A stretch of 64,000 nucleotides of DNA from Verrucomicrobiota bacterium. GTDB lineage: Bacteria; Verrucomicrobiota; Verrucomicrobiia; Limisphaerales; SIBE01. The stretch is from positions 530 to 64,529 of the forward strand of contig VHCZ01000005.1 of NCBI GenBank assembly GCA_016871535.1, read 5' to 3'. The notes beneath the pieces were generated by a model, which searched no databases, was not told where the DNA came from, and worked only from the letters and a program-made list of their open reading frames with translations. The translations under genes and the position numbers were made by a program. Positions 3,610 through 54,781 of this stretch are shown here, in pieces; positions within the stretch are counted from its first letter, which is position 1; each line of letters begins with the position of its first letter.

Positions 3610-3611
3610 TT

Positions 3612-3627: not shown

Positions 3628-3664
3628 TTTAGCGCACGCGACACTTTTAGCCGGAAAAAAATGA

Positions 3665-3705: not shown

Positions 3706-3794
3706 GTCCGGCGCACGTAATTCCTTGTGCCGCGCGCATGCGCGTTGCAAGTGCTAACGAGTCTAAGGCCCTCTTTGGGCTGCGACACTGTGCT

Positions 3795-7887: not shown

Positions 7888-7903
7888 TGGCTTACAATTT
7901 GCT
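7888..7903 (+). promoter_or_regulatory. sigma54 promoter TGGCTTACAATTTGCT upstream of fliD
   Basis: TGGC..-N-..TTGCT with exact GG-N10-GC spacing, 45 nt upstream of the fliD ATG. A sigma54 activator gene is immediately upstream. Confidence 0.6.
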
Positions 7904-35000: not shown

Positions 35001-36355
35001 GGTTGGGTTAAGGCTTCAAAACGAAAAGCTGGCCAGACCGACGTTCTGCTTTCAGAGAAACCGTATTCGCGGAACATCCGCTGCCAATACTCTCCGTGAG
35101 TGGCCAGGCAGTCCGGAATCTGATTGGCCGTGAAGTCGCTTCGGGAAGGGAAATAGCTGAACCAAAACGGCGGCACCGGGCAATGTTGATAAGCGGTCAG
35201 TTTCGTTGCCGGCAGGAATTCGCGAACTCCTAACCTCAGTCCTTTCTCCCAGGGCTGGTTTTCATACGGATAAATCAAGTTCCCGACGGTGCTGCCCTGG
35301 CCGGCCAGGAATCTGCCGACGTGATAGAACTGCTGGGCAAAAAGCGGGCGCGCGATGCTCTGGTCGTGATGAAACGCCTCGAAGAGAAGCGGAGTCACAT
35401 CGACTCCCTCCAGAATCCACCGGCCTCTGAGTTTGAGCGTGAACTCGAGAAGACGTTGAGCCGTGCTTTCAAAAGCATCCAGATCAACACAATCTTCAAT
35501 AAAGAGACAGGGACCCGTGCCGCGAAAGACACCTTCGTAAATCTTTTCGATCGGATAAACCCAATCGAGTGGATTGACCAGGAAGACGACGCTCCCGCCG
35601 GCCTCCTCCAGCCAAAAAGGCAGAGGCCCGAAAAAGTCGTCTCGGCCAGCGCGGGCGTGCCTGGCGAAACTCTCAGGTTGAATCCAGGACACGAGGAGGT
35701 GATCAATCTGTTTCGGCAGCGCGCCTAAGGGGCGTCCAGCTTTTTGGCGAAGGTTCGCGACCAGTTCCTTCCGAGATCGGAGTCGGCCAATGAAATGCGA
35801 TGCGTGGGCCGCAAATTTGGATTTTTGATTCCTGCGATGCTGTCTGAGGGTTTTGAACAGAGCGCCTGCCTCTTCCTGATTGAAGGAACCCCAAAGCTGG
35901 ACCTCGCACTTTCCAGTCCTGGACGCGACTCTAGACAAGAAAGCTGCCAGGTATGCGTCGTCCACCACGATCAACAACTCACCGTCGATGTCTTCGAGGA
36001 TGCGCGGCAGAGAAAGAGCGGCGCAGAGATGGTAAAAGAGCATGGAAGAGAGCGGGCTTCGTTCGGCCACCGAGGTTGTCGCCCAGCGCAGGTCTGCGAC
36101 ATCCACTTCCACCACTTGATCTAAATTCAGGAACTCGCGCCAGATTCTGGAAGCCGTGGCATTGATATACTGGCCGCTGCAGACGTAAGTCGCGAATCGA
36201 TTTAGCCCCTCCTGTATGGAATAAAAAAAAGCCGCCTGATTCCCCAAATAGGTCCAACTGAATTGTCCGGAGGAGCGGAACCGCTCCAATGCCCGCGCCA
36301 ATTCGCTGGCTTGACTGAACACCACGGTCTTCTTTTTCATCGGATTTATGCCCAT
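23063..36355 (-). CDS. giant multidomain glycosyltransferase (4430 aa): unknown N-terminal domain, 4 GT2, 1 GT-A-like, 2 GT4 domains, six tandem TPR modules
   Basis: Uninterrupted 13,293-nt ORF. GT2 signatures: VSVVIPCYNYAHFLPEAVESV..DPDD (~34300), VSVVIPCYNYERYLPEAVDSV..DADD (~32310), ISVIVPTYNRPEMLAETLQS..DDDD (~31555), VSIIVLTFDNLELNRECL..NNDT (~30510). GT-A-like FSFCIITNGKR..ADDDM (~29625). GT4 signatures near 33550-32480 and 28680-27560 (SRGEGWGRPQMDAMACGLPVIAT). Six paralogous ~190-aa TPR modules span 27240-23110. Confidence 0.8.
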   Translation of the reverse strand: MGINPMKKKTVVFSQASELARALERFRSSGQFSWTYLGNQAAFFYSIQEGLNRFATYVCSGQYINATASRIWREFLNLDQVVEVDVADLRWATTSVAERSPLSSMLFYHLCAALSLPRILEDIDGELLIVVDDAYLAAFLSRVASRTGKCEVQLWGSFNQEEAGALFKTLRQHRRNQKSKFAAHASHFIGRLRSRKELVANLRQKAGRPLGALPKQIDHLLVSWIQPESFARHARAGRDDFFGPLPFWLEEAGGSVVFLVNPLDWVYPIEKIYEGVFRGTGPCLFIEDCVDLDAFESTAQRLLEFTLKLRGRWILEGVDVTPLLFEAFHHDQSIARPLFAQQFYHVGRFLAGQGSTVGNLIYPYENQPWEKGLRLGVREFLPATKLTAYQHCPVPPFWFSYFPSRSDFTANQIPDCLATHGEYWQRMFREYGFSESRTSVWPAFRFEALTQPAGAKAAALPQSSGPHLRVLLCLVIEAGPSLEMLTRTIEALHAIRNVRLEIRFHPRMGRESELLQTALRIAQLSSLPEEMIVGQRSASEALVDSEVVICNGSSVEFEAAHAGRTTIGLLSEFFVDQNVMPFAEYDFTCRTASELRAVVQKLAANRQSIQPRPWSEQKSREFFEPVCGATKHAVVTWLTGGGSDPQSLHKADAPSMDEARSDLFQTQESRMPRRPEADAESIPPPKVSVVIPCYNYAHFLPEAVESVARQTCRDFEIIIVDDGSTDNTASVARQLIDTYQDLPITLIRQSNSGQPASARNSGIDAARGEYVLPLDPDDKIAPTFLEKAVNLIESDGKVGVVYSQLQHFGDRQDIWRCGEFTLQNLLQDNCVPYCALYRKRLWAEVGGYKLNVKGYEDWDFWISLAEKGWEGRLIPEPLFFYRKHGSGLLDRANRNRELLKAQITVNHFRLYDWPRVQSASSRIVEARKTANRTSRPRVLLACPHFYPSVGGVESIVENLGRRLSFLDFDVEVAAYSNEARQTDDHLGMRVISLDREKISGTTLPRATVQLGELVCSGRYDACIAISDPSNLLFWAFHGLTLPRRFRLILQPVINDAAFHNWRGDREFRESLRSVLQSAHAVVSITRHGAGDRYFQEEKIDPAYIPNAVDVVAPAGDFRREHGIPKDMPLLLHVANLFRVKNHLGLFETLQNLPGEWRLAIIGGTTMEQNYGKAVREAVERDPKVIWIPGLPPEKVSAAMEAADLILLPSRAEASPVVILEAMSHAKAWVATPNCGAVHDNAGGVIVPLAEFPNAIATLLRETELRKALGQCGYDHWGACFSWNVVIRAWTSVIQGEPIKANFEMPAGVSARMAELRGEFQRQANQARATRSIALPSAVSGEAAVQPMKSPPRVSVVIPCYNYERYLPEAVDSVIKQTYQDFEIIIVNDGSTDDSAQVAESLRARYSTHRIKLINQPNSGQPAISRNRGIAEAQGEFILPLDADDRIAPTLLAECVQILESNPDVAIAYTDAIFFNRERSWIQPTAEYDFKVLIHANHLCYCSLFRRQAWETVGGYKTNVKGYEDWDFWIGCGEKGFVGKRIAKPLFHYREKADGLFQDALKRDTILRINIIANHPDLYPKDIVEIARRFLRGEGNPKAQSQGPAISVIVPTYNRPEMLAETLQSILSQTFQDFEILVVNDAGQDVSKQIEGLNASRKIRYFQHFQNRGLAAARNTGVNQARGKYITYLDDDDLFLPDHLQTLHEFLQKSGAKVAYTDAWRAHQMKKGGSYEIVRRDVPYSRDFDRDEILVGNFVPVLCFMHEKACWETAGGFDESLTSHEDWDLWIRMSRHFQFFHIPKVTCEFRWRFDGTSMNSGKRADMLRTATRVYEKSEHLVSGRPELQAARKAYLEGMKREVLASRQAAEAQAASQESASLPNSEPTASPLPGGEPATIAECGVRSAETVGLPPLPAKHEWGEDRGEWKSQHDSPPLLSPLLSSSGREGAIQSLPLVSIIVLTFDNLELNRECLASLYETIDPAKGEIIVVDNASTDGTADYLRREQQAGRLRAFLNSQNVGFARGCNQGALEARGHLLLFLNNDTRVTPGWCDSMIWAARLPRVGVVGVKLLYPDGRVQHAGFGLVGQMLDHVHRFAPASAPEVNVFRELDIVTGACLMIPRTLFFELNGFDESFKNGGEDVDLCLRVRAAGWKVVYEPRTVVYHHEAKSAGRLQHVPENVQLFGQRWSMQFDAKARFHPPTPPRTQKAEKSLLDEPDAAQKLADASSVNVQRVDSSAPQCAKQRAPGFSFCIITNGKRPAKLREEIQSIRALKIPQCEILVGGDVPAGFDDVIAVPMAEVAHAGRLGEMRNQLCRRAQYDRLVVADDDMIFHADFYEGLLNFGENYDVLCVRLLNTDGTRFWDWAKAGSAAEQRLLEYTEYDSRVYVTGGLCIMKAAVSDLVQWDGQRGFYQLEDVDFSERLKTAGFSIRCCPFSTVTHNDRRYTQVGRVILARKAEFKFPWEDPELQNAPPNALLAKAVETARVQRYAECADYVRMCLRLDPMHPAARELWSKMLLAFGGDTKQSSLYASPPFEPLVRPVDSPARGSGAGENLTSSAASAMPVLWHGLFYSFSGYAEEARHFVLNLESNNINLAIRSFAPASEGCRAKIDSADRDKLDALLQKNIPSPFAAVVHVSGRCLDRLPGAAYCIGRTMFETDRLPQEWVEKCNRMDEIWVPTEHSLESFRNSGVTARLVKIPGGVDTDRFRPGLNPLPIPGRRKTVFLSIFEWSYRKGWDVLLHSWARAFKPQDDVCLVLRAYPLNASEAPDVSREINLFIDAFLSRILKLNRSQVAPIIVLGCPISEADLPHLYAAATAYVAPSRGEGWGRPQMDAMACGLPVIATGWSGTREFMTERNSILLDYKMADVGPESEIEYFRGHRWAEPSRDHLAQLLPRVVEQPEEMARIGSRARQDMVEKWQWDRVAELAAGRLAEIAEELRGKTSNQLSVVSDQLSESVRPQTPDAPRLSPESVVSDPLSVASCQLPGGSNQLSESALRTPHSAPEGSAIGQELARQGRIPSYKRESVHSMNDAHDSNPKPDLEIGPVSPEANRLLERADAEYRKGNLANARSVLLEALQHLPNSPRIHATLGAILFSLNEFATAREHFAKAAELAPNDPGVRVQLALANLELDQIEDFEAALGRALELDPNYRDALKLLADLNLKQGSYKDAGQTYVKIISRNPEDLDSLLGLGACFFKANEWETAREVYQRILQISPNHSLAANNLAAIKKKIEERASGVVSDQLSVISNQSPGSALRTPHSALNQANVGQASSLPESTISEDSKKGRQEACPTLQPNSEIERLLASAERESQNGNHSSARQILEQALQQAPNNIRVIEQLGMAAFALNDFITAQRHFGRLTEIMPSDPSAFVQLALTHLRLERIDQFEQALGRALDLDPYHRDALKLLADLNLRNDQFKDAAQAYTKILSRHPDDLDALLPLGVCFFKVNDFETAKLVFERVLEKHPGNPVAKENLDVIRQRMAVGQLSVVSDPLSVSGDQSPESAIRNPQSAMENVGQASSLPESTVLEEGKTGRQDACPALQPHSAIDGLLEKAQTEHQRGNLARAKELLVEALRLERDEPRALAAAGAICFALNEFEQAYQYLQRATEVNRRDPAVFVQLALANLKLDQIEEFEVALGRALEIDPHHRDALKLLGDLNVQNGRLKDAAQAYTKILSRHPDDLDALLPLGVCFFKDGDLETARLVFERALERHPDDPVAKENLVAIRQKLSEGRESNQLSVVSDQSSQSAIENVGQASSLPQSTVSDDGKKGRQDACPTPPPQVATDQSALAKLMDQANFFCEVSNRQAALETLEQAVELAPRDPQIRSALGSLHFTQGNYEAAREQFRRLIEIKPRDVDAYTRLAMACLKVNRIEEMEAALGLALEIDPHHREALKFLAKTNLENNRVRDAGRAYAKLLERQPDDLETLLSLGLCFYRGADFESARMVYNRVLEMDPNNVTARENLYQLDQKSENSGQLSVASGQLSVAEAQQSEKSEIAQLNQWLTKADAAVGSQNLAEARDALKAALAFAPDSPEILSAIGTVCFQLGDLRQARIHLERLVQIAPSDPGKWVQLALCHYQLGELAEFESALAKAMELDSNCLDALRLRAQVDFNQGKIQSAAQAFGKMLKQTPNDLEVLMPLAVCFYKTGDYETAKMIFERILELEPEHTLARENLKVLLDNLRVAKGSGQLSVASDQLSEVSGQSDHSALRAPHSAIEKAGTRALDEQLSRANALWSAGDLAGVAAALQEALKASPDSHEICAALGSVLYQKGDLSASCQELQRATQMLPNSSDYQTRLALALLGLERIPEFEAVLGRVLENDPTYRPALRLLADLNFRENRFKDAAQTYHKILLQAPDDTEVMLPLAVCFYKTGDAESAKMVFERVLQIDPQNAVARENLDLLTKPPSSPPPSSSKPARRKKKR
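23069..23078. repeat. homopolymer T10 (A10 on the coding strand) in the last codons of the giant ORF
   Basis: Coding strand reads CGA AAA AAA AAA CGG TAG (R K K K R stop). This is the longest homopolymer I found in the window. Confidence 0.95.
25017..25093. repeat. 77-bp double-hairpin element (copy A) with terminal inverted repeats GTAGGGCAGGC / GCCTGCCCTAC
   Basis: gtagggcaggcatcctgcctgcctttctttccgtcatcagagaccgttgattgaggcaggctggaagcctgccctac. Hairpins GGCAGG-cat-CCTGCC and GGCAGGC-tggaa-GCCTGCC. In frame: VGQASSLPQSTVSDDGKKGRQDACPT. Confidence 0.8.
25734..25810. repeat. 77-bp double-hairpin element (copy B)
   Basis: gcagggcaggcatcctgcctgcctgtcttgccctcttccaagaccgttgattcgggcaggctggaagcctgccctac. 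In frame: VGQASSLPESTVLEEGKTGRQDACPA. Confidence 0.8.
26481..26557. repeat. 77-bp double-hairpin element (copy C)
   Basis: gtagggcaggcctcctgcctgcctttcttactgtcttcagagatcgttgattcaggcaggctggaagcctgccctac. In frame: VGQASSLPESTISEDSKKGRQEACPT. Confidence 0.8.
26572..26599. repeat. perfect tandem heptanucleotide array (GTGCGGA)x4
   Basis: Counted directly. In frame it reads SALRTPHSAL. Degenerate versions occur at ~23693-23722, 25100-25113 and 25818-25850, and in inverse orientation at ~30647-30685. Confidence 0.9.
27355..27382. repeat. perfect tandem heptanucleotide array (GTGCGGA)x4
   Basis: Counted directly. In frame it reads SALRTPHSA. Confidence 0.9.
27406..27454. repeat. heptanucleotide-periodic array (CTGGCAA)x3 then CTGACAA CGGATCA CTGACCA CTGATTC
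   Basis: Counted directly. The same ACTGAYN-type 7-nt periodicity occurs at ~23735-23779, 24384-24427, 25115-25152, 25855-25900, 26606-26645 and 27495-27540. It translates as QLSVVSDQLSV-type linkers. Confidence 0.85.
30601..30631. repeat. G/C-rich hairpin CCTCTCCCC-N13-GGGGAGAGG within an in-frame palindromic linker (about 30520-30690)
   Basis: Perfect 9-bp stem. The neighbouring hairpin CTCTCTT-N7-AAGAGAG lies at ~30526-30548, and an inverted (ACTCCGC)n tract at ~30647-30685. Translated as ...AIAECGVRSAETVGLPPLPAKHEWGEDRGEWKSQHDSPPLLSPLLSSSGREGAIQS... Confidence 0.7.
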
Positions 36356-36474: not shown

Positions 36475-37242
36475 CTACAAGGGTGGCGTCGATTCAACGT
36501 CGTCGGTATAGCCGTGCCGTTTGAGCCAGAATTCTGCCTGGGGAATTTGCCATTCGTAGTCCACGTCCAGCCCGCCCCAATTGTGAACCGGAAAGATCTT
36601 CTTTCCCATCCAGCGCTGAGGCAGGAGCCCCTCATGCAGGTTCTCTAAACAGCGAGGCCGGACCACCGACACCCCCATGTCCGCGTAATAAACATTGCCT
36701 TGGGAGTCGCGGTCGCAGGACAATTTCGATGGGTCGCCAAAAGCGTCGAAAGGCACGAACGGCTGCAAGCACCCGTCTTCATCCGCACGCCGGGCGCGCA
36801 ACGGACTCCACATGTTGTAACAGGAGACCGTGACGGCGCTGTCCAGCGCTCCGTTTCTCCGCAAGGTCTTGACCCCCTCTTCAATCAAGCGACTGGTCAC
36901 GGTTGGGGAATTCGCGAACAGCAGCACCATCAACTCGATTTCTTTACCCTCCTGCCGCCAGAGCTCGCGGATGTGCCGATACCCATGCGCAAAAGCATCC
37001 TCGCCCAGGGCCGTGGCCGTGCAAAGCTCCGGGGGGCGGACGATGATTCTCGCGCCGTGTTGCCGTCCGACCGCCATGATTTCTGGAGAATCGGTGGAAA
37101 CAAAAACTTCGTTGACAAATTTGCAGCCCCGCGCCGCCAGAATGGGGTAAGCCATCATGGGCCGGCCCAACAGAGGATACAGATTCTTGTTCGGCATGGT
37201 CACGCTGCCGCCGCGACCCAGTAAAAGCGCAGGAATAGCCAT
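36475..37242 (-). CDS. acylneuraminate (nonulosonate) cytidylyltransferase family protein (NeuA/PseF/LegF-like)
   Basis: MAIPALLLGRGGSVTMPNKNLYPLLGRPMMAYPILAARGCKFVNEVFVSTDSPEI matches the CMP-NulO synthetase N-terminal signature (IPAR.GS...KN...L.G.P). Confidence 0.85.
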   Translation of the reverse strand: MAIPALLLGRGGSVTMPNKNLYPLLGRPMMAYPILAARGCKFVNEVFVSTDSPEIMAVGRQHGARIIVRPPELCTATALGEDAFAHGYRHIRELWRQEGKEIELMVLLFANSPTVTSRLIEEGVKTLRRNGALDSAVTVSCYNMWSPLRARRADEDGCLQPFVPFDAFGDPSKLSCDRDSQGNVYYADMGVSVVRPRCLENLHEGLLPQRWMGKKIFPVHNWGGLDVDYEWQIPQAEFWLKRHGYTDDVESTPPL

Positions 37243-37268: not shown

Positions 37269-37541
37269 TTACTGCAGTGATATCTCCGCCCGTGCCACAG
37301 AGAGGGATTGTTCAGCCTGGGTTCCGAATTCGATCGAGGCTTCTATCATCTTTCTGACATCCATGAGTCCGCGTCGGGACGAAGCGTAAGGACCGCCGGC
37401 AAGATGCTTCAGCATGTCGCGCTCTGAATCCCCCAGATCAACGCTTCGCGTGGCGGCCTCCGGATCGTCTAAGAGCAGCAACCTGAAGGGCTCATTTTCC
37501 ACGGCCTTGTTCACGATATCCCAGAGATTTTGCAGAGACAT
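37269..37541 (-). CDS. 90-aa ORF with NHLP/Nif11-leader-like N-terminal half and a double-glycine motif (candidate RiPP precursor; alternatively a divergent carrier protein)
   Basis: MSLQNLWDIVNKAVENEPFRLLLLDDPEAATRSVDLGDSERDMLKHLAGG-PYASSRRGLMDVRKMIEASIEFGTQAEQSLSVARAEISLQ. Gaps to its neighbours are 21 nt and 26 nt in the same orientation. The family call is by eye only. Confidence 0.55.
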   Translation of the reverse strand: MSLQNLWDIVNKAVENEPFRLLLLDDPEAATRSVDLGDSERDMLKHLAGGPYASSRRGLMDVRKMIEASIEFGTQAEQSLSVARAEISLQ

Positions 37542-37562
37542 ACTCGCACCCGGTTTCCACTT

Positions 37563-39134
37563 CTAATAACACTCCAAAGCCGTGCGTTTGGCGTCGTAAA
37601 CGCCATCCAGATACTCTTTCCTTAATTGAGCGAACATGCGGTTTCCTTCGCCATCAAACCGCTCGGCGATGCGAATCCTCGAAAACTCAGACCGGGGCAG
37701 CTTGGCGTACAGAACGAATGTCCTTTGCAGCCCAAGCAACTCGGTCTTTGAGATGGTCGGCATGTTGAGAATGGTTTTGAAATACGGATAATCACCGCTC
37801 AACGAGATATCGATGACCTGGTCGTCCTCAGCTTTTGGCAGATACCCCTTTCGCTCGCAGACCTTGTAGAGTTCAGTCCCTTTGTACGGATTGAACAGAT
37901 AAGCGTTGATCGTCGCGGACTGGATGTGCCGATTGAGTGCGATGGTGTCGAAAACCAACTCCCGGGTTTCATCCGGGAACCCCATGATGTTATTAACCGT
38001 CGTGGGGATTCCGGCATTGTGCAGGAGTTGAAGCCCATTGATGATGAGTTCATTCCTCATCGAACGCTTCAGCACTTCGCGTCGAAACGTTTCATTGCCG
38101 TGTTCCAGGCCAATGTTGATGTGGGCCACCCCCATCTCTTTCAGCAGGTCAATGCGAGGCTGAGTAATCGTCTCGGGCCGGGTCTGCAGCCAGAATGGCA
38201 GCCGTATTTCTTTCGCGTAGGACTCGCCCATCGCAACAAAATCGTCATTGGGCATGGCGAAGAACGTTTCGGCGTTGAAATAAATGAATTCGGCGCCGTG
38301 TCGCTCGACGAGGGACTTGATTTCGTCGATCAAACGTCCTGGGCTCTTGGCGCGGTGGTAACGCTGGTTGACCCGTTTGTAGAGGACATTCAGCATGGGA
38401 TCTTCACAAAACGCGCACTGGTAAGGGCACCCTCGGTGCATTTCGACCGGAAGTATCCGCATCACGCGCCCCTGCATGGAACGGTAAAAGCGCGCCGGCT
38501 CAAAGATGTCGTAGTCGGAGAACGGCAAGCTATCGACATTCACCGTCGGTCCGATCTCATTCTTAATGATCGTGCCGTCCGGCTTTTTGATCCAAAGGTT
38601 CGGGATGGTATCCAGACTCTTGCCCTCGGCCATTCGGCGCACCAGCTCTAAAAGCGCGTTCTCTCCCTCTCCCACACAAACGAGGTCAACGGATTCTTCC
38701 TGCGCGACAACTTCCGGCGCAAAAGTCGCCATAATGCCGCCGGCAACCACCGGAATCCCTCGACGATGAGCTTCACGCATCAACGGGATTCCAATGGGAA
38801 ACGTATCTTCCAGCAAAGACACTCCTAGGAGATCTGGATCGTACTCGTCGAGGAGTTGGCGGAAGTCCTCCACGATGTCGGACTCTTTATAGAGTACCCC
38901 GCTGTCCTCCAGTTTGAATCGTTTGAGTTGCAGCAACTCGAGGCGAATGTCATCGAAGCTTTTATCCTGAGGCCGATACAGCGTGGTGTCGAACAAGCGG
39001 GTCTCAAACCCTGCGCGTTTCAAGACGGCGGATAGAATCGATATGCCCGCGGGAAGGAGCAGGTGTGCCATCTGAAAGTTGGGGTACAAGAAAAGAATCC
39101 GGCCCCGAAATTGTTTCGATGGAAATCTTGTCAT
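37563..39134 (-). CDS. B12-binding domain radical SAM protein (class B rSAM)
   Basis: N-terminal Rossmann-like B12-binding region (RILFLYPNFQMAHLLLPAGISILSAVLKRAGFE...VVAGG) and the rSAM cluster motif HRGCPYQCAFCEDP (CX3CX2C). Paralog of the next gene. Confidence 0.9.
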   Translation of the reverse strand: MTRFPSKQFRGRILFLYPNFQMAHLLLPAGISILSAVLKRAGFETRLFDTTLYRPQDKSFDDIRLELLQLKRFKLEDSGVLYKESDIVEDFRQLLDEYDPDLLGVSLLEDTFPIGIPLMREAHRRGIPVVAGGIMATFAPEVVAQEESVDLVCVGEGENALLELVRRMAEGKSLDTIPNLWIKKPDGTIIKNEIGPTVNVDSLPFSDYDIFEPARFYRSMQGRVMRILPVEMHRGCPYQCAFCEDPMLNVLYKRVNQRYHRAKSPGRLIDEIKSLVERHGAEFIYFNAETFFAMPNDDFVAMGESYAKEIRLPFWLQTRPETITQPRIDLLKEMGVAHINIGLEHGNETFRREVLKRSMRNELIINGLQLLHNAGIPTTVNNIMGFPDETRELVFDTIALNRHIQSATINAYLFNPYKGTELYKVCERKGYLPKAEDDQVIDISLSGDYPYFKTILNMPTISKTELLGLQRTFVLYAKLPRSEFSRIRIAERFDGEGNRMFAQLRKEYLDGVYDAKRTALECY

Positions 39135-39145
39135 GTGAGCGCTCT

Positions 39146-40819
39146 TTAGTTGCTCGTCGCCATGGAAGGTTCTGCAACCGACTCGCGACCGGGCCCTGTC
39201 CCAAGCATGGCCTTGTAACGCGAATCAACCATCCCGAGAATCGAAGCTTCGGCGGCGTCGTTGATCTTGAAATCATCTTTCTCCAACTCGATCTTGCCGG
39301 CATCGTCATTCTCGTTTCGGTCGCCCCAGTGCATGAAGTTTTCGAGGACTTCCTGCCGCAACTCGTCCCAAACGCGGTCTCCTTCCGGAGTCAATTCCTC
39401 AGCCTTCCGAACTTCTGACCATCTGGATTTCGGAAGTTTCACGTAAATCACGAAACATCGCCGCAGCCCTTCGATCTCTTCTTTTGACCAATGCGGCATG
39501 CGGAGCATCGTGGGCTTCATGATGGAGCGAGTGATCTCGCCCGGTTTCACGTAGCCGAGCAGTTCCGCCATGGTCCTCAAAGGGGTGCCGTGGAAAGGCG
39601 TGAAGGAATAGGCATTCATGCCGTCCGATCGGATGCGCCGGTTGAGATCGATCGTGTCGAAGGCCAGTTCTCTGTTCTCCCGAGGGAAGCCCATGATGTT
39701 GTTCACGCTGAAGGGCACTCCCAGCTCGTGGAGGATATTCAAATTGTTGACGATGGTTTCGTTGTCGATCCGGCGCAACAGCACTTTCTCGCGAAACCGT
39801 TCGTTCCCGTGCTCGACACCGAAAGCGACGCGCAGGATCCCCGCCTCTTTCAATCGTTTGAATTTATGCCGCGTCACGGTCTCCGGCCGCGTTTGGATCC
39901 AGAACGGCAGCTTGAATTCGGAGTACATGTCGCAGAACTCCTCAAACTCCGCATCCGTGACGGCCAGGAATGTGTCGGCCCAGAAATAAAAGGAATCCGG
40001 TTTGTAGCGCTCCCGCAGATAGACGAGTTGGTCTTTGATTCTCTGCACCCTCGTCTTCCGGAAGAATTTCTGTTTGGCCTCCTGGTGAATGATGATTTGC
40101 GAAGGCGAGTTGCAGTAGGCGCACGTATAGGGGCAGCCTCGGATCGTCTCGACCGGAAACATGCGCCAAACTTTTCCCTGCATCGGCCGATAAAACCGGC
40201 TTTCCTCGAAGAAATTGTAATTCGGGAGCGGCACATCATTGGGATCCAGCACCACCGGAAGCGGGTTTCGATGAAATGACCCGTCCTTCTTCAGAAAACA
40301 GATGCTGGGTATGCTGGCCACTTCGCGGCCCGACTCCAAACGCCGGCAAAGCTCCGGCAGAGTCGTTTCCCCCTCTCCGGTCAGGAGGTAATCGATCATG
40401 CCGTCGGCCTTCCGCAAGGCCAGCTCCGGGGCGAAAGTCGGGAAGACCCCGCCCGCCACGACTTTGGGCCGGTCCCGTTTGTCCAACGCCCGGAGCAACT
40501 CCAGGGCATTCGGGTACATGTCTTCTGTGACCGAGAAAGCGAGAAGATCGGGAGAGAATTCCCTGATCTTCCACCGGAAATCTTCTGTCGGCGAACCATG
40601 TTTCTCGTTCTGCCGCAGCAACCGGTCGTCAAAAGGTCGCGCGTTCAGTCGCTCTTCTTTGAGCTTATCGCTGTCGAGGCTCCCCCAGTCGGAGTAAGTG
40701 GTGGTGTCGAACAAGGCAGTCTGATGCCCTTCCCGCAGCAAGCAGCTATTCAGAATGCCAATTGCCGGAGGCAGCATGTTCATCCCGAAAAGATTCGGAT
40801 AGACCAGGAGAATCTTCAT
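39146..40819 (-). CDS. B12-binding domain radical SAM protein (class B rSAM), tandem paralog
   Basis: MKILLVYPNLFGMNMLPPAIGILNSCLLREGHQ...VVAGG, and IRGCPYTCAYCNSP (CX3CX2C). Long blocks shared with 37563..39134, e.g. FW(I/L)QTRPET(V/I)T...G(V/L)EHGNE(R/T)FR.....VNNIMGFP.E(N/T)REL.FDTI.LNR.I. Confidence 0.9.
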   Translation of the reverse strand: MKILLVYPNLFGMNMLPPAIGILNSCLLREGHQTALFDTTTYSDWGSLDSDKLKEERLNARPFDDRLLRQNEKHGSPTEDFRWKIREFSPDLLAFSVTEDMYPNALELLRALDKRDRPKVVAGGVFPTFAPELALRKADGMIDYLLTGEGETTLPELCRRLESGREVASIPSICFLKKDGSFHRNPLPVVLDPNDVPLPNYNFFEESRFYRPMQGKVWRMFPVETIRGCPYTCAYCNSPSQIIIHQEAKQKFFRKTRVQRIKDQLVYLRERYKPDSFYFWADTFLAVTDAEFEEFCDMYSEFKLPFWIQTRPETVTRHKFKRLKEAGILRVAFGVEHGNERFREKVLLRRIDNETIVNNLNILHELGVPFSVNNIMGFPRENRELAFDTIDLNRRIRSDGMNAYSFTPFHGTPLRTMAELLGYVKPGEITRSIMKPTMLRMPHWSKEEIEGLRRCFVIYVKLPKSRWSEVRKAEELTPEGDRVWDELRQEVLENFMHWGDRNENDDAGKIELEKDDFKINDAAEASILGMVDSRYKAMLGTGPGRESVAEPSMATSN

Positions 40820-40856
40820 CGCGCTGATGGCTTTCGCATCAAATCCTCTTCAGCCG

Positions 40857-40872
40857 AGCAAGTTGCGCGCCA
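40857..40872 (-). promoter_or_regulatory. sigma54 promoter TGGCGCGCAACTTGCT (read on the - strand)
   Basis: One mismatch to TGGCACG-N4-TTGCW with exact GG-N10-GC spacing. It lies in the 198-nt gap upstream of the first B12-rSAM gene (ATG at 40819), ~38 nt upstream of the ATG. Confidence 0.6.
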
Positions 40873-41017
40873 CGGAATTGAAGCCCCATTTCTACTTCCG
40901 AAACCCAAGAATGCACCATGTTGGGCGTCTTGGGTCGCCCGCCCTGGGAATAATATTCCGCCCTGCGGACGAAATTGTCCCGGGGCCAGTCGGATGGGAA
41001 GCCGGCCTGCTGAAAAG

Positions 41018-41800
41018 TTAGCGCCTCACAAATACCGTGTTCAGGCTGTCCTCATACGGACTCCCCGCTAGTTGCCGGCTCGAATGGTCGGTGAAGTCCG
41101 TGATTCTTACAAATCCGAGGCGCAGCAGCAGATTCGCGATCGGATCCGAGTCTCCCTTCTTCTTGGAGACTTCGACCAGGACAGAGCGGAGGCGCGGGTC
41201 GAACAGAGTGGAAAGCGCGCCCTGGAATACCTTTTCCTCCAGGCCGTCCACATCCACTTTGAGATGATTCGGGAATTTGAACCCCCATTGCTTCCAGAGA
41301 AAATCCAAATCGACGCCCACAGTGCCCTGGCAATGGACCGGCTGGAATTCATGACCGCAGCAATCCTGCGTAGTCCCAAAGCTGTGCAGCGCGGCGCCGC
41401 TGAGCAGTTGCGCGCCCTTTCCTTCTGTAAAACTGAACTGCTGGGGATGGATGTTCAGTCGGTCAAAACAGAGCCTGTCTGCGATCGCCACGTTGCAGGG
41501 GAGGATGCAGTTCGAGAGCCCGTTCAGGTAGATGTTCTTGCTTAACTGCGCGTAATTCAGCGCCTCAGGTTCAAACGCGTAAATCGAGCAGTTCCCGTTC
41601 AGGACTCGAGCCGCGTAAAGGGAATATTGACCAATGTTCGCCCCGACGTCGTACATCGTGTCGCCGGGCCGAAAAAGGCGTTCAATCCACTCCAGAGTTT
41701 CCGGTTCCTTCGTCCCGAACGTGTTGGCTCGAAAATCCTCGATCGGTGAATCGACACAAAGCCGGATGGAGTGGCCTTTGACAATACAGGTTTTGATCAT
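41018..41800 (-). CDS. FkbM-family SAM-dependent methyltransferase
   Basis: PGDTMYDVGANIGQYSLYAARVLNGNCSIYAFEPEALNYAQLSKNI is the typical FkbM motif (DVGANiG.ys...v.aFEP). Confidence 0.85.
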   Translation of the reverse strand: MIKTCIVKGHSIRLCVDSPIEDFRANTFGTKEPETLEWIERLFRPGDTMYDVGANIGQYSLYAARVLNGNCSIYAFEPEALNYAQLSKNIYLNGLSNCILPCNVAIADRLCFDRLNIHPQQFSFTEGKGAQLLSGAALHSFGTTQDCCGHEFQPVHCQGTVGVDLDFLWKQWGFKFPNHLKVDVDGLEEKVFQGALSTLFDPRLRSVLVEVSKKKGDSDPIANLLLRLGFVRITDFTDHSSRQLAGSPYEDSLNTVFVRR

Positions 41801-41806
41801 AGCAAT

Positions 41807-42907
41807 TTAGCTGGCTTCCAGCTCGCACAGCAGGTGCTGAAGACACTCGGCGAACTCGATCATCAAGCCGGGCGGACCCAGGGTGACCCGAATGCAACCG
41901 GAGATACAGGCTGAATCGAAAGGTCCTTTCACCAGGTAACCTTGCTCCTTCAGACGAAGGACCAGTTGCTTCGGGCTTACGAGGTGGGCCACACGGATCA
42001 ACATGAAGTTCGTGCTGGTCGGGAGAGGAATCAACCCCATCTCAGTCAGGCGCTTCGCCAATAGACGCGCCGCGGAGTGAACTTCATTCTTATAGGCTTC
42101 GACTATTTCCGGATGATCCAGAATCAGTCTTGCACAAAGCATCGCCATACTGTTCACGTCGTGGGCTGATCGCACCTTGAACAGGCTTTCGGTGATTTCG
42201 GATGCCGCCGCCACCCAACCAATCCTCAGCCCGGCTAACCCGCACGCCTTCGAAAACGTTCGAAGGATGAGCAGATGTGGGTGCTCGCGGACAGACGGAA
42301 GATTGGTCACATCGGAAAATGGGTAATAGGCCTCGTCAACCGCCACCAGAGCCCCCGCGCGAATCGCTCGGTCGAGCACGCCGAGAACGGTGTCCGGCTT
42401 GAGAATTGTGCCGGTAGGCTGATTTGGATTGGCGAGCACCACCAGTCGAACGCCCGAACCTGCCGCGTCCATGAGCGCCTGCTCGTCCAGGCTGAGATCC
42501 AGATTGAAACCAATCTGAATCGGTAAAGCCTCGAACATTCGGGCATAAATGGGATACATCGCGTAGCTTGGATCAAGCATGAGCACTCGGTCACCCGGGC
42601 TGACGTACGCCTGGAACAACGCCTTGATCGCCGCATCTGATCCGGCCGTTAACAACAGCATCTCTTCCGGCAGGCCCGTCTGGCGGGCCAACTGCGGAAG
42701 CAATTCGTCCTGAAACGGGTAACGCGTGAGCAACTCGCTTGAAACCATCGATCGTATCTTTTCGATGAACCAGCCCGGCAATGGCGAAAGCCGCTCATTT
42801 CGGTCCAAGCAAACGTACCGATGGTGGTCGCTGCCCGGATCGCGAACTCGGCGCAATCCTGCGATAGGGGGCCGGGCGGATAGATCAAAAGCATGCATGC
42901 GCTGCAC
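41807..42907 (-). CDS. class I/II PLP-dependent aminotransferase (HisC-like)
   Basis: LDRNERLSPLP, LANPNQPTGT and RTFSKACGLAGLRIGW (PLP lysine in SK) fit the histidinol-phosphate aminotransferase family pattern. Confidence 0.85.
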   Translation of the reverse strand: MQRMHAFDLSARPPIAGLRRVRDPGSDHHRYVCLDRNERLSPLPGWFIEKIRSMVSSELLTRYPFQDELLPQLARQTGLPEEMLLLTAGSDAAIKALFQAYVSPGDRVLMLDPSYAMYPIYARMFEALPIQIGFNLDLSLDEQALMDAAGSGVRLVVLANPNQPTGTILKPDTVLGVLDRAIRAGALVAVDEAYYPFSDVTNLPSVREHPHLLILRTFSKACGLAGLRIGWVAAASEITESLFKVRSAHDVNSMAMLCARLILDHPEIVEAYKNEVHSAARLLAKRLTEMGLIPLPTSTNFMLIRVAHLVSPKQLVLRLKEQGYLVKGPFDSACISGCIRVTLGPPGLMIEFAECLQHLLCELEAS

Positions 42908-42910
42908 GGG

Positions 42911-44044
42911 TTAAATGACGGTACACCTCTGGCAAGGAGAAAGACTGTTTCGTCGATGCGCCAGGTGAGCTTCGCGATAGGCGCTGTATTTTGGCCCGGT
43001 CCAGAGTGCGGACAAACCTTCGTTCCGGGCGTTCCCTACCTTTAGTGTGGAGAGGTAGTCCACGTCACATGGATTCACCGTTCCGTCGAACCACACGAAC
43101 ATACGCCGCCAAAGATCGGAGCACGGAGTCGAAACATTGTTGACGGGGCGTTGATAGGTGTTCTCCCAGGGATTGTAATCCACAAAAGCGACCTGATCGA
43201 CCAGTTCGCCCCAAAATTTCTCCATTTGATCGAGGTTCTGCGCGGAGTTGTATCGGACCCCTGAAACACGCGTGATCAAGTTCGAAGCAGAGTAGTCACG
43301 CCGCCGTATCTCGAGGAACCGTTCGACGTTGGCCTGAACCCGCTCCAGCTTTCCATTGACCCGCAATTGGCTGTACAGAGGCTCGGCCGCCGCATCCGCC
43401 GAAAACACCAGGGTGTTCGCGCCCGATTGCAGAATGGCGTGCGCCTTTTCCTCGTCCAGGAGTGAGGCGTTCGTGTTGATTTTCAGGCCGAGGAATTTCC
43501 CGCGGACGTAAGCCAGCATTTTGACGATGTCCCGGCAGACCAGAGGTTCTCCCCGCGAGGCCAGCGTGATGGCCTCGCATTTGCCTTCGGCTTCGTCGAT
43601 AATCTTCCGAAACAAATCATAGCTCATCATCCCCATGTGTCCGCCTCGGGCGTCCGTCAAGTGCGAGTCAGTTTGGTAGCAAAATACGCAGCGATAATTG
43701 CAGATCGAAGTCGGTTCGATTTGCAGGCAGGGAGGAAAATCATCCACGGTCCGGCTTTTCGGAAAGACGTCGTACCGGTAACGATAGAACAGATACCGGG
43801 GAAGGTCAGCCTGGGAAACTCGACTCAGTTCCTCCACGACGTGAGGTCGCAAAGAAAAACGATCTGGAGAACTCTCCTCGGAGAGCAGATCACTACAAGC
43901 CTTCTGGACAATGGTGCGACGGTAGTCAGGAAGCTTCAGTTCGCTCCGATCAATCGCCGCGATGCGCTGAAGGATCGCCTGCGGATCGTGGCCTCTCTGG
44001 CGCAGCTCGCGAAGGCTGTCCGCCTTCAAATAAAGTTTGTCCAT
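42911..44044 (-). CDS. radical SAM enzyme with truncated SPASM/twitch-type C-terminal Cys motif
   Basis: EPTSICNYRCVFCYQT (CX3CX2C). C-terminal CX12GX4C (PCSDLWRRMFVWFDGTVNPC) then CQRC at the very end. Start taken at ATG 44044 (M41); the track start 44164 would overlap the upstream gene by 35 nt. Confidence 0.85.
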   Translation of the reverse strand: MDKLYLKADSLRELRQRGHDPQAILQRIAAIDRSELKLPDYRRTIVQKACSDLLSEESSPDRFSLRPHVVEELSRVSQADLPRYLFYRYRYDVFPKSRTVDDFPPCLQIEPTSICNYRCVFCYQTDSHLTDARGGHMGMMSYDLFRKIIDEAEGKCEAITLASRGEPLVCRDIVKMLAYVRGKFLGLKINTNASLLDEEKAHAILQSGANTLVFSADAAAEPLYSQLRVNGKLERVQANVERFLEIRRRDYSASNLITRVSGVRYNSAQNLDQMEKFWGELVDQVAFVDYNPWENTYQRPVNNVSTPCSDLWRRMFVWFDGTVNPCDVDYLSTLKVGNARNEGLSALWTGPKYSAYREAHLAHRRNSLSPCQRCTVI

Positions 44045-44129
44045 GATGACTCTTGTTTGCCTGGAAACACAGTCGCGTACTCCGCTCCAACGCCGACGTG
44101 CATGCGTGATTTGTCGGATGCTTGATTTC

Positions 44130-51018: not shown

Positions 51019-51035
51019 GCGCACGGGAACAGCCT

Positions 51036-52883: not shown

Positions 52884-52889
52884 ACGCGA

Positions 52890-54635: not shown

Positions 54636-54754
54636 ATCGGAGGTTCTTTTTATTCGAGAGATCGTGGAAGGATCACGAACGGTCTTGCACGCATTCGATG
54701 CAACCAGCTTCGATTTGAGTTGCGATTGTCATTCTCTCGGCGGTCGGCTCTTGC

Positions 54755-54781
54755 GTATCGGCCACGGCTCTTCAGGTTTTA
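54755..54781 (-). promoter_or_regulatory. sigma28-type promoter TAAAACCT-N11-GCCGATAC (read on the - strand)
   Basis: TAAA (54781-54778), 15-nt spacer, GCCGATAC (54762-54755), versus the consensus TAAA-N15-GCCGATAA. The -35 overlaps the TAA stop of the 115-aa ORF. ~120 nt upstream of the AsnB-family ATG at 54635. Confidence 0.55.

What the first reader, a model, noticed from the sequence alone, without database searches (positions are those of the whole stretch)
37269..40872. RiPP-like module inside a glycosylation island: NHLP/Nif11-leader-like 90-aa ORF with a GG site behind two tandem B12-radical SAM genes and a sigma54 promoter
- **The ORF.** The 90-aa ORF reads MSLQNLWDIVNKAVENEPFRLLLLDDPEAATRSVDLGDSERDMLKHLAGG|PYASSRRGLMDVRKMIEASIEFGTQAEQSLSVARAEISLQ. 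It sits 21 nt after the second B12-rSAM gene and 26 nt before the cytidylyltransferase gene, so it is packed like a genuine cistron.
- **Leader resemblance (by eye).** Residues 1-50 reproduce the two hallmark blocks of NHLP/Nif11-type RiPP leaders as I remember them. One is KA.E(D/N)E.F(K/R)..LL.(D/N)P.AA. The other is an acidic stretch ending L..(V/L)AGG, the double-glycine processing site. That leaves a 40-aa Cys-free core.
- **Precedent.** Cobalamin-dependent rSAM C-methyltransferases acting on NHLP-leader precursors are established for proteusins (PoyA with PoyB/PoyC).
- **Neighbours.** Two further rSAM enzymes with SPASM/twitch-type motifs, an FkbM methyltransferase and a PLP aminotransferase lie just upstream. 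A near-consensus sigma54 promoter (TGGCGCGCAACTTGCT) precedes the first rSAM gene.
- **Why it matters.** A ribosomal-peptide tailoring module co-transcribed with giant glycosyltransferases next to flagellar genes would be new.
- **Alternative I cannot exclude.** The ORF may be a divergent acyl/peptidyl carrier protein. DLGDSE around Ser39 loosely recalls the DLGxDSL phosphopantetheine site, and helix spacing is compatible. In that case all rSAMs act on the sugar or on a carrier-tethered acyl group.
Basis: partly seen in the sequence, partly recalled or inferred. Interest (0 to 1): 0.75.

Follow-up and report, generated by a model that had tools for sequence, protein, structure and literature searches.

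The report
Leader-like small protein paired with B12 enzyme
The 90-residue gene is real and does belong to the protein clan that supplies leaders for ribosomal natural-product peptides. Its cleavage site is not conserved, and across about eight lineages it always follows one particular vitamin-B12 radical enzyme inside sugar-decoration gene clusters, so it looks more like that enzyme's dedicated partner, or its substrate, than a classical secreted peptide precursor.

Summary
**Observation: confirmed.**
- The ORF at 37269..37541(-), its 21/26-nt spacings, its neighbours and the sigma54 motif are all as described.
- The ORF is a real gene: dN/dS is 0.31, the AF2 model has pLDDT 85, and it recurs in about 8 lineages.

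**Interpretation: partly supported.**
- Homology to the NHLP clan is real. hhalign gives 99.4% against Os1348/PosA-like precursors, and 22 of the 22 first-found relatives hit NF038399. ORF90 itself stays below every curated cut-off.
- The ACP alternative is rejected.
- The classical RiPP anatomy fails. GG occurs in only 3 of 23 members. Residues 51-72 are the most conserved part and are helical. The tails are unconstrained. No protease or exporter is present.
- Relatives of both B12-rSAMs lie mostly beside sugar-pathway genes (59 of 80 species loci), and 79 of the 80 lack the ORF.

**New finding.**
- The ORF always follows a B12-rSAM. Wherever that enzyme's sequence could be read outside the Verrucomicrobia lineage, it belongs to one distinct subfamily ("B12a-L"), which in the window is the first rSAM, 39146..40819.
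- All 11 distinct B12a-L sequences have the ORF downstream; none of 62 sister enzymes do.
- B12a-L carries its own derived signature residues, confirmed on a hold-out sequence.

**Best reading (0.45):** a non-exported adaptor or subunit of B12a-L in a CMP-sugar tailoring cassette.
**Main rival (0.30):** it is B12a-L's methylation substrate.

The parts
37269..37541 (-). ORF90: a 90-aa small protein of the NHLP clan and a member of a new, rare subfamily (about 30 sequence clusters). Residues 1-50 (37392..37541) form the NHLP-homologous helical bundle. Residues 51-75 (37317..37391) form the family-specific conserved loop and amphipathic helix, PYxSxxRGLxDxxKMxxAxxEY. Residues 76-90 (37272..37316) are an unconstrained tail.
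39146..40819 (-). B12a-L: a cobalamin-binding radical SAM enzyme of 557 aa. It belongs to the subfamily that co-occurs strictly with the small protein and is therefore its inferred cognate partner. Signature residues are L23, W45, P77, N104, L176, R271, T416, W444, L462 and W498, plus a C-terminal insert around 497-514.
37563..39134 (-). B12b: the second cobalamin-binding radical SAM enzyme (523 aa), lying between B12a-L and ORF90. Its 67-73% identical orthologues (L003, L007, L008) sit in sugar clusters without the small ORF, so it was probably inserted into an older B12a-L/ORF pair.
36475..37242 (-). Cassette cytidylyltransferase (CTP_transf_3). It is PseF-like but below the cut-off (78 bits against 205). 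It follows the small ORF directly in the window lineage (window, L006, L001/L002) and in 3 other lineages (L078, P0126, P0128), with overlapping stop and start codons in those three.
40857..40872 (-). Sigma54-type -24/-12 motif TGGCGCGCAACTTGCT, 37 nt before the B12a-L ATG. It is conserved in position in L006.
40957..40969 (-). Terminator-like hairpin between the FkbM gene and the sigma54 motif. It probably marks the start of the transcription unit B12a-L, B12b, ORF90, cytidylyltransferase and glycosyltransferases.
41018..44164 (-). The rest of the conserved cassette: FkbM methyltransferase (41018..41800), HisC-like aminotransferase (41807..42907) and rSAM-SPASM 'SPASM1' (42911..44164). In many phyla these are found together with B12a-type enzymes and the cassette cytidylyltransferase, without the small ORF.
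23063..36355 (-). A 4430-aa multi-domain glycosyltransferase (several GT2 and GT4 domains plus long TPR arrays), downstream in the same orientation. It is the presumed user of the activated sugar.

Best explanation
ORF90 is a genuine small protein of the NHLP (nitrile-hydratase-leader-like) clan. It founds a rare subfamily that has kept the folded 'leader' bundle and added a conserved amphipathic helix. The subfamily has lost the hallmarks of an exported RiPP precursor: it has no conserved Gly-Gly, no hypervariable core and no protease or exporter.

ORF90 forms a fixed two-gene unit with one distinct subfamily of cobalamin-dependent radical SAM enzymes (B12a-L, here 39146..40819). That unit sits inside a cassette that tailors a cytidylyl-activated sugar or acid for glycan, here probably flagellar, decoration. 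The cassette consists of a cytidylyltransferase, an rSAM-SPASM enzyme, a HisC-like aminotransferase, an FkbM methyltransferase and the B12-rSAM.

My preferred mechanism is that the small protein is made at a level coupled to the enzyme and binds B12a-L as a non-catalytic adaptor or subunit, effectively a leader domain acting in trans. It would dock on the enzyme's derived Trp-rich surface and C-terminal insert and be needed for the enzyme's C-methylation step on the sugar intermediate.

**Shown:** the homology, the fold prediction, the strict co-occurrence, the enzyme signature and the sugar-cluster context.
**Inferred:** physical binding, the adaptor role and the sugar substrate.
For: **1. 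Real gene in the NHLP clan.**
- dN/dS is 0.31 and the AF2 model has pLDDT 84.7.
- hhalign gives 99.4% to Os1348-like proteins. 22 of 22 relatives hit NF038399.
- The best fold matches are Os1348 6lk7 (prob 0.72, TM 0.60), a proteusin precursor and NHase alpha.

**2. Strict pairing with a B12-rSAM.**
- In every lineage where the upstream DNA is visible, a B12-rSAM lies immediately upstream.
- All 11 distinct B12a-L sequences have the ORF downstream, against 0 of 62 other B12a-clade enzymes. Only 1 of 80 species-level loci has it.

**3. B12a-L has its own derived signature.**
- The residues W45, N104, L176 (Lys in every other clade), T416, W444 and W498, plus indels, are absent from sister and outgroup enzymes.
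- The hold-out enzyme L107 is 75% identical to the window's B12a. It carries 10 of 12 signature residues and all 10 indel states.

**4. B12a-L keeps the role of ordinary B12a.**
- It occupies the same cluster slot as ordinary B12a enzymes: FkbM is adjacent, and the cassette cytidylyltransferase, SPASM1 and aminotransferase are present. It is about 60% identical to them.
- It appears to replace them rather than add to them, which implies the same substrate class.

**5. Gene layout fits a subunit.**
- The ORF lies downstream of the enzyme, with abutting or overlapping stop and start codons on both sides in L078, P0126 and P0128, and a 9-nt gap in L107.
- No flanking terminator is present.

**6. 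The post-GG segment looks structural.**
- It has an a/d-type hydrophobic periodicity and is the most constrained part of the protein.
- The tails are unconstrained and almost absent in some members.
Against: - Every characterised NHLP-clan small protein I know of is a RiPP precursor, for example Os1348/PosA (PMC7726476, PMC12636437).
- B12-rSAM C-methyltransferases are established NHLP-precursor tailoring enzymes in proteusins (own knowledge).
- B12a-L has lost a Lys (K176) that is conserved in all related clades. This could mean a change of substrate rather than a new interface.
- The invariant G58-L59, preceded by a basic residue, could be a modification site.
- No physical interaction, and no requirement of the enzyme for the small protein, has been shown.
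- NJ bootstrap does not resolve whether all B12a-L enzymes form one clade (51 of 200).
- The small protein evolves much faster than the enzyme: 36% against 75% identity for L107.
Confidence: 0.45

Rival explanations
1. ORF90 is the substrate of B12a-L. It would be a RiPP-like small protein whose conserved 51-72 segment is C-methylated, for example at or near the invariant R/K-G-L motif. It would then either stay in the cell as a modified protein or be processed by enzymes encoded elsewhere. The sugar cluster would be its constant genomic home, or would supply a further glycosyl decoration.
For: - ORF90 belongs to the NHLP clan.
- Its closest named relative, Os1348/PosA, is a validated precursor. 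That family also lacks a GG site, is largely folded, and persists full-length in cells (PMC7726476; PMC12636437).
- The ORF is strictly adjacent to one B12-rSAM subfamily.
- B12a-L differs from its sugar-cluster sisters at otherwise conserved positions, including K176L, as expected for a change of substrate.
- Proteusin PoyB/PoyC provide a precedent (own knowledge).
Against: - B12a-L is about 60% identical to enzymes that work without any such peptide. It sits in the same cassette position and appears to replace them rather than add to them.
- No protease, exporter or RRE-type protein lies in the window or in the ORF-bearing loci.
- The gene is a single copy, lies downstream of the enzyme and is translationally coupled to its neighbours.
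- The candidate target segment is predicted as a packed amphipathic helix.
Confidence: 0.3
2. ORF90 would be a classical double-glycine NHLP/Nif11 precursor, cleaved after G49-G50 by a PCAT exporter encoded elsewhere, releasing a 40-aa core methylated by the two B12-rSAMs.
For: - A GG follows an L..LAGG-like motif in ORF90 and its two closest relatives.
- The N-terminal half is NHLP-like.
Against: - GG is present in only 3 of 23 family members. Elsewhere the positions read ND, HG, QG, HS, MS, IG, SA, SS and SD.
- Conservation continues for about 22 residues past the site and is strongest there.
- No C39 peptidase or ABC transporter lies in the 64-kb window or in the related loci.
- B12b orthologues lack the ORF.
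- TIGR03793 scores 12.4 bits against a 50.9 cut-off. TIGR03798 gives no hit at E<=1.
Confidence: 0.05
3. ORF90 has a role unrelated to B12a-L catalysis. It could be a small regulator or assembly factor for the downstream cytidylyltransferase or glycosyltransferases, or a selfish or neutral passenger that happens to travel with the enzyme gene.
For: - The cytidylyltransferase follows directly in the window lineage and in 3 other lineages, with overlapping codons in those three.
- The small protein evolves fast.
Against: - The downstream gene varies between lineages: cytidylyltransferase, class I methyltransferase, 2-hydroxyacid dehydrogenase or a convergent GT47. The upstream B12-rSAM never varies.
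- The enzyme carries subfamily-specific derived residues that track the ORF.
- The ORF is under purifying selection.
Confidence: 0.15
4. ORF90 is a divergent acyl or peptidyl carrier protein, phosphopantetheinylated at Ser39.
For: An AMP-binding enzyme does exist 11 kb upstream (48373..51237).
Against: - No PF00550 or ACP model hit at E<=1.
- Ser39 is replaced by A, D, G, N, H or P in family members.
- Foldseek finds no ACP among its matches.
- The AMP-binding gene is absent from the other ORF-bearing loci.
Confidence: 0.02

Closest known systems
Os1348/PosA family (NF038399), NHLP-clan RiPP precursors of Pseudomonas sp. Os17 and relatives (PDB 6lk7; PMC7726476; PMC12636437)
   Same: - Both are small (about 70-90 aa), all-helical, largely folded proteins.
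- They are homologous over residues 1-59 (hhalign 99.4%).
- Os1348 is the best fold match (prob 0.72, TMt 0.60).
- The Os1348/PosA family also shows no typical double-Gly site (PMC12636437).
   Different: - ORF90 scores 26 bits against a 40-bit cut-off.
- After residue 59 the two families are unrelated.
- PosA has a defined C-terminal core (poly-Gln plus ARMD) modified by HEXXH and MNIO enzymes, next to efflux genes. ORF90's family has unconserved tails, a B12-rSAM partner and a glycan-cluster home.
Proteusin precursors (PoyA-type NHLP leaders) with the cobalamin-rSAM C-methyltransferases PoyB/PoyC (own knowledge; NMR structure 8tb1, PMC10858898)
   Same: - An NHLP-type folded leader is encoded beside B12-dependent radical SAM enzymes.
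- There is a local fold match to 8tb1 (39 columns).
   Different: - Proteusin leaders are about twice as long and are followed by long cores bearing many modification sites, together with epimerase, N-methyltransferase and protease genes.
- Here the NHLP-homologous part is about 50 residues and there is no obvious core.
- The enzymes' closest relatives work in sugar clusters without any peptide.
- TIGR03975 scores are far below the cut-off: 78 and 67 bits against 282.
B12-rSAM methyltransferases acting on nucleotide-linked or sugar substrates: Fom3 on cytidylyl-2-hydroxyethylphosphonate, GenK/GenD1 on gentamicin sugars (own knowledge)
   Same: A cobalamin-rSAM is encoded with a cytidylyltransferase and sugar-modifying enzymes. 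This gives a plausible model for what B12a and B12b do in the cassette.
   Different: - None of those enzymes is known to need or to pair with a small NHLP-like protein.
- Sequence similarity is only at superfamily level (PDB matches at E>=1e-6).
Small dedicated partner proteins of radical SAM enzymes, such as PqqD/RRE domains (own knowledge)
   Same: A protein of roughly 90 aa is encoded next to, and co-inherited with, a radical SAM enzyme. This is the functional analogy for the adaptor reading.
   Different: - PqqD/RRE is a winged-helix fold that binds the leader peptide.
- Here the small protein is itself leader-like, so the polarity would be reversed. No homology was detected.

Membership tests
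NHLP clan (homology level) | Significant profile similarity to NHLP-clan leader models or families | tested here: met
   - ORF90 against NF038399: E=6.6e-6.
- 22 of 22 relatives hit NF038399 (best 5e-18) and 10 of 22 hit TIGR03793.
- hhalign of the family against Os1348-like proteins: 99.4%, E=2e-21.
NF038399 Os1348-family NHLP clan protein | Score at or above the curated cut-off (40 bits) | tested here: not met
   The score is 26.1 bits and only residues 8-47 align. Beyond residue 59 there is no similarity to Os1348-like sequences.
TIGR03793 NHLP leader / TIGR03798 Nif11 leader | Score at or above the curated cut-off | tested here: not met
   TIGR03793 scores 12.4 bits against 50.9 (E=0.11). 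TIGR03798 is not reported at E<=1.
NHLP/N11P RiPP precursors as defined by Haft et al. 2010 (PMC2887384) | [quoted passage not shown] | tested here: not met
   GG occurs in 3 of 23 members. Conservation continues to about residue 72, with G58 and L59 invariant.
NHLP/N11P RiPP precursors as defined by Haft et al. 2010 (PMC2887384) | A hypervariable core peptide rich in modifiable residues after the leader | tested here: not met
   Residues 51-72 are conserved, helical and Cys-free. Only short unconserved tails of about 1-25 aa follow, and these diverge even between the window and L006.
NHLP/N11P RiPP precursors as defined by Haft et al. 2010 (PMC2887384) | Co-occurrence or clustering with a peptidase-domain ABC exporter (PCAT) | tested here: not met
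   None is present in the 64-kb window or in the ORF-bearing loci L006, L078, P0126, P0128 and L092. The rest of the genome could not be searched.
RiPP biosynthetic unit (general) | The precursor is modified by the adjacent tailoring enzyme | not testable with these tools
   Only adjacency and co-inheritance with B12a-L are shown. Testing modification needs co-expression and mass spectrometry.
Proteusin-type system | Tailoring enzymes are specific to peptide-bearing clusters | tested here: inconclusive
   This is met for B12a-L (11 of 11 against 0 of 62). It is not met for B12b, SPASM1, the aminotransferase or FkbM, which occur widely without the ORF.
Acyl/peptidyl carrier protein (PF00550) | PP-binding profile hit, a conserved Ser at the start of helix II, and an ACP four-helix fold | tested here: not met
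   There is no hit at E<=1. Ser39 is variable. No ACP appears among the Foldseek matches.

The most novel reading that the evidence does not exclude
A leader-like ribosomal protein has been recruited into sugar biosynthesis. The NHLP-fold protein would be either the methylation target of a B12-rSAM that evolved from sugar-modifying ancestors, or a carrier or adaptor on which a step of activated-sugar tailoring depends. Either way it would be the first functional link between RiPP-type recognition and glycan, here probably flagellar, decoration pathways. It would define a new two-component B12-rSAM system found in Verrucomicrobia, Elusimicrobiota and several uncultured metagenomic lineages, including marine ones.
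Probability: 0.3. Interest if true: 0.8.

Novelty: new variant of a known kind. Interest (0 to 1): 0.55.

Why it matters
- **For genome mining.** NHLP-type proteins are currently read as automatic markers of RiPP natural-product clusters. This subfamily has the fold but none of the processing or export anatomy, and it lives only in glycan clusters bound to one B12-rSAM subfamily. If it is an adaptor, leader-like domains can act in trans on enzymes of small-molecule or sugar metabolism, which would be a caution for RiPP mining.
- **For enzyme evolution.** If it is a substrate, it documents a sugar-pathway B12-rSAM switching to a protein substrate.
- **For cassette biology.** The work also delineates an uncharacterised cassette (cytidylyltransferase, rSAM-SPASM, HisC-like aminotransferase, B12-rSAM, FkbM). 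It is spread across SAR11, Nitrospinota, Elusimicrobia, Gallionella, a MAG labelled Helicobacter cetorum and others.
- **For experiments.** The strict pairing and the enzyme's signature residues give a directly testable hypothesis by co-expression and mass spectrometry.

Tried and rejected
- **ACP hypothesis.** Rejected: no profile hit, Ser39 variable, no fold match.
- **Word-indexed homologue search.** With ORF90 alone it found only itself and one relative. The exhaustive HMMER search was needed.
- **The search for related loci with the whole family alignment.** Failed because no stretch was conserved enough. The marine-subgroup scan returned only short contigs.
- **Foldseek against PDB.** No match reached E<1 for either model. 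The Os1348, proteusin and NHase matches are supportive only alongside the sequence evidence.
- **P0135.** This 452-aa hit with five matching stretches is a beta-propeller repeat protein and a false positive.
- **NJ tree and bootstrap.** Monophyly of all ORF-linked B12 enzymes is unresolved (51 of 200). Only the clade of window, L006, L078 and L107 is solid (194 of 200).
- **Mapping signature residues onto a solved structure.** Not possible, because the nearest PDB relatives are too remote (AprD4 at E=1e-6).
- **Literature.** Searches for B12-rSAMs in nonulosonic or flagellin pathways, and for PDB entry 6LK7, found nothing relevant.
- **Rfam.** No RNA family, and so no cobalamin riboswitch, was found in the window.
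- **Two contexts without DNA.** P0126 and P0128 came back with gene tables only, so their B12 subfamily could not be typed.

Full report
**1. The observation**

It starts 21 nt after the stop of a B12-binding/radical SAM gene (37563..39134, 'B12b'). It ends 26 nt before a CTP_transf_3 cytidylyltransferase gene (36475..37242).

The genes upstream on the same strand are:
- a second B12-rSAM (39146..40819, 'B12a');
- an FkbM methyltransferase, a HisC-like aminotransferase, two rSAM-SPASM enzymes and a LIC12162-like protein;
- hexapeptide acyltransferases and an AMP-binding enzyme;
- three AsnB-like amidotransferases and a WbuX amidotransferase;
- NeuB, a DegT aminotransferase, an epimerase and a second cytidylyltransferase.

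Downstream lie a 4430-aa and an 1163-aa multi-domain glycosyltransferase with TPR arrays. The opposite strand, at 1-19.5 kb, carries flagellar genes and a sigma54 activator. A source names the identical protein as hypothetical protein FJ398_01560 of a Verrucomicrobia MAG.

The sigma54-type motif is at 40857..40872(-). On its own it is not significant, with 3 matches in the window against 1.4 expected. However, it keeps its position and its GG/GC elements in a related contig while the spacer differs. A terminator-like hairpin precedes it. The likely transcription unit is therefore B12a, B12b, ORF90, cytidylyltransferase and glycosyltransferases.

**2. Is it a gene?**

Yes.
- Against the orthologue in contig L006, dN/dS is 0.31.
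- AlphaFold2 with a 21-sequence alignment gives pLDDT 84.7 and pTM 0.69. The predicted helices are 2-15, 17-25, 27-30, 38-49 and 56-88, and only the last 20 residues or so are of low confidence.
- An exhaustive HMMER search of 1.84 billion cluster representatives found 22 proteins at E<=1e-3. One of these, P0135, proved to be a beta-propeller false positive. The rest are 66-96 aa.
- A profile search of the 5.8-billion-protein collection added a few more. The family is real but rare.

**3. What family?**

ORF90 alone gives sub-threshold hits: NF038399 (Os1348-family NHLP clan) at E=6.6e-6, 26 bits against a 40-bit cut-off; PF14407 at 3e-3; and TIGR03793 at 0.11.

Homology to the clan is nevertheless secure:
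- all 22 relatives scanned individually hit NF038399 and 10 hit TIGR03793;
- the family profile aligns to Os1348-like sequences with 99.4% probability over columns 1-59;
- the best fold matches, none individually significant, are Os1348 itself (6lk7, prob 0.72, TMt 0.60), a proteusin precursor NMR structure and the N-terminal helices of nitrile hydratase alpha.

Os1348/PosA is an experimentally supported RiPP precursor. It is largely folded, dimeric, lacks a double-Gly site and persists full-length in cells (PMC7726476; PMC12636437).

The carrier-protein alternative is rejected. There is no PP-binding hit at E<=1, Ser39 is replaced by A, D, G, N, H or P in relatives, and there is no ACP fold match.

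**4. Where the RiPP anatomy fails**

In the 23-sequence alignment the G49-G50 pair occurs only in the three Verrucomicrobia-type sequences. Elsewhere these positions read ND, HG, QG, HS, MS, IG, SA, SS or SD.

Conservation does not stop there:
- Residues 51-72 ([PST]-[YF]-x-[ST]-x-x-[RK]-G-L-x-[DE]-x-x-[KR]-[ML]-x-x-A-x-x-[YF]) hold two of the three invariant positions, G58 and L59.
- They show the lowest dN/dS (0.13, against 0.55 for residues 1-50).
- They have an a/d hydrophobic periodicity and are predicted as a confident helix.

What follows is a tail of about 1-25 unconserved residues, which differs even between the window and L006.

No peptidase or ABC exporter is present in the window or in any ORF-bearing locus. 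Three of the defining features of NHLP/N11P precursors as set out by Haft et al. (PMC2887384) were therefore tested and not met.

**5. Genomic context across lineages**

| Lineage | Gene order around the small ORF |
|---|---|
| Window and L006 (Verrucomicrobia) | B12a, B12b, ORF, cytidylyltransferase |
| L001/L002 (short contigs of the same type) | B12b fragment, ORF, cytidylyltransferase |
| L009-L011 (P0123) | B12b-like fragment, ORF, transposase |
| L078 (Elusimicrobiota MAG) | B12, ORF, cytidylyltransferase, epimerase; overlapping stop and start codons |
| P0128 and P0126 (metagenomes, 36-39% identical to ORF90) | SPASM, aminotransferase, B12, ORF, cytidylyltransferase, epimerase; abutting or overlapping |
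| P0127 (L107) | B12, 9-nt gap, ORF, class I methyltransferase |
| Two groups from marine and other aquatic metagenomes (L092-L106) | B12, about 42 nt, ORF with its own Shine-Dalgarno sequence, then a convergent GT47-like transferase or a 2-hydroxyacid dehydrogenase |

The only constant neighbour is the upstream B12-rSAM.

**6. The enzymes without the ORF**

A scan of one genome per species with the B12b alignment returned 80 loci at 35-73% identity. The phyla include SAR11, Nitrospinota, Elusimicrobia, Planctomycetes, Gallionella and a MAG labelled Helicobacter cetorum.
- A family HMM run over all stop-to-stop ORFs found the small gene in only one of these loci, L078.
- 59 of the 80 loci have sugar-pathway neighbours.
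- 32 carry a close homologue of this window's cassette cytidylyltransferase, and 24 a close homologue of its SPASM1. The HisC-like aminotransferase and FkbM are often present too.
- Orthologues of B12b at 67-73% identity (L003, L007, L008) sit in such clusters with no ORF.

The rSAM enzymes, the aminotransferase and the cytidylyltransferase therefore form a widespread sugar-type cassette that normally works without any peptide.

**7. The cognate enzyme is B12a, as a distinct subfamily**

Outside the Verrucomicrobia lineage, every B12 gene directly upstream of the ORF that could be typed is of the B12a type, not the B12b type.

Comparing 10 ORF-linked B12a sequences with 62 unlinked ones showed residues exclusive to the linked set. 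In window numbering these are L23, W45, P77, N104, L176, R271, T416, W444, L462 and W498, plus several indels including an insert around 497-514.

Outgroups do not share these states. For example, position 176 is Lys in every other clade, and W444 and W498 are unique to the linked set. The states are therefore derived.

A sequence not used to define the signature (L107) is 75% identical to the window's B12a. It has 10 of the 12 residues and all 10 indel states.

Neighbour-joining strongly supports the clade of window, L006, L078 and L107 (194 of 200). It does not resolve whether the marine groups join that clade (51 of 200).

In summary, all 11 distinct 'B12a-L' enzymes have the small gene downstream and none of the 62 others do. 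In the Verrucomicrobia lineage, B12b appears to have been inserted between the pair.

**8. Interpretation**

The pairing plus the enzyme signature argue for a direct functional relation between B12a-L and the small protein. Two mechanisms fit.

*(a) Adaptor or subunit.*
- B12a-L keeps the cassette position of ordinary B12a (FkbM adjacent; cytidylyltransferase, SPASM1 and aminotransferase present).
- It is about 60% identical to ordinary B12a and seems to replace it rather than add to it. The substrate class is therefore probably unchanged.
- The small gene lies downstream of the enzyme, is translationally coupled and is a single copy.
- It lacks a core, a cleavage site and an exporter.
- The three newly gained Trp residues and the C-terminal insert look like an interface.

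*(b) Substrate.*
- All characterised clan members are precursors.
- B12-rSAMs methylate NHLP precursors in proteusins (own knowledge).
- Loss of the otherwise universal K176 may signal a change of substrate.
- The invariant [RK]-G-L could be a target.

I favour (a) at 0.45 over (b) at 0.30. The classical double-glycine reading gets 0.05, the ACP reading 0.02 and an unrelated role 0.15. Nothing here shows binding, methylation or the identity of the sugar; those steps are inference.

**9. Novelty and score**

The ORF is not a member of any curated NHLP family by score. It fails the anatomical definition of an NHLP precursor, yet it is a clear clan homologue. That makes it a new variant of a known kind.

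I found no description of NHLP-like proteins tied to B12-rSAMs in glycan clusters in the searchable literature.

Interest is moderate (0.55). The strict two-gene coupling and the sugar context would surprise a RiPP or rSAM specialist and are directly testable. The mechanism remains open, and the family is rare.

Noticed in passing
window 36475..37242, 41018..44164 and 39146..40819; loci L012-L091: A conserved, apparently uncharacterised cassette is spread across many phyla. Its genes are a CTP_transf_3 cytidylyltransferase, rSAM-SPASM, HisC-like aminotransferase, B12-rSAM and FkbM methyltransferase. The phyla include SAR11/Pelagibacteraceae, Nitrospinota, Elusimicrobia, Gallionella, Rhodospirillales and a MAG labelled Helicobacter cetorum. 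It often lies near NeuB, DegT or epimerase genes. None of its proteins reaches an NCBIfam equivalog cut-off, so its product is unknown.
   Followed up: partly
window 63141..63824 (-): A second CTP_transf_3 cytidylyltransferase sits beside the GFO oxidoreductase, DegT aminotransferase and epimerase genes, with the GNAT acetyltransferase and NeuB genes just beyond. The island therefore encodes two cytidylyltransferases, presumably for two different activated acids or sugars.
   Followed up: no
window 23063..36355 (-) and 19533..23024 (-): A single 4430-aa ORF combines at least four GT2 domains, two GT4 domains and long TPR arrays, and is followed by an 1163-aa GT4+GT2+TPR protein. In the related contig L006 the equivalent region is called as an 1873-aa gene plus further genes, so the giant ORF may be a lineage-specific fusion.
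   Followed up: no
window 7888..7903 (+): A second perfect TGGC-N7-TTGCT sigma54-type motif lies 46 nt upstream of fliD (7949..9685) and just downstream of the sigma54 activator gene (6241..7707). This suggests that the flagellar genes and the glycosylation operon share sigma54 control.
   Followed up: no
L009 240..3733; L010: The 58%-identical homologue P0123 is followed directly by a DDE_3 transposase and a group II intron reverse transcriptase instead of the cytidylyltransferase. In that lineage the operon seems to be interrupted by mobile elements.
   Followed up: no
L092 1..3893: In one lineage from marine metagenomes the B12a-L/small-ORF pair lies downstream of a HemN-like rSAM and a FAD-dependent tryptophan-halogenase-like enzyme. 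A stretch of about 1 kb (2881..3893) has no called gene and no ORF of at least 70 aa.
   Followed up: no
window 48373..58070 (-): Three AsnB-like amidotransferase paralogues, a WbuX N-acetyl-sugar amidotransferase and a 954-aa hexapeptide-acyltransferase/AMP-binding fusion lie between the NeuB block and the rSAM cassette. The ORFs 48373..51237 and 51036..52883 overlap by about 200 nt as listed, so one start codon is probably downstream of the listed one.
   Followed up: no
L004/L015 10001..11635 (Nitrospinae MAG): A 60%-identical B12b-type rSAM stands alone among housekeeping genes (arginyl-tRNA synthetase, UDG, MoxR, Lon-like), with no sugar genes within 10 kb. Not all members of the B12b clade are cluster-bound.
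   Followed up: no
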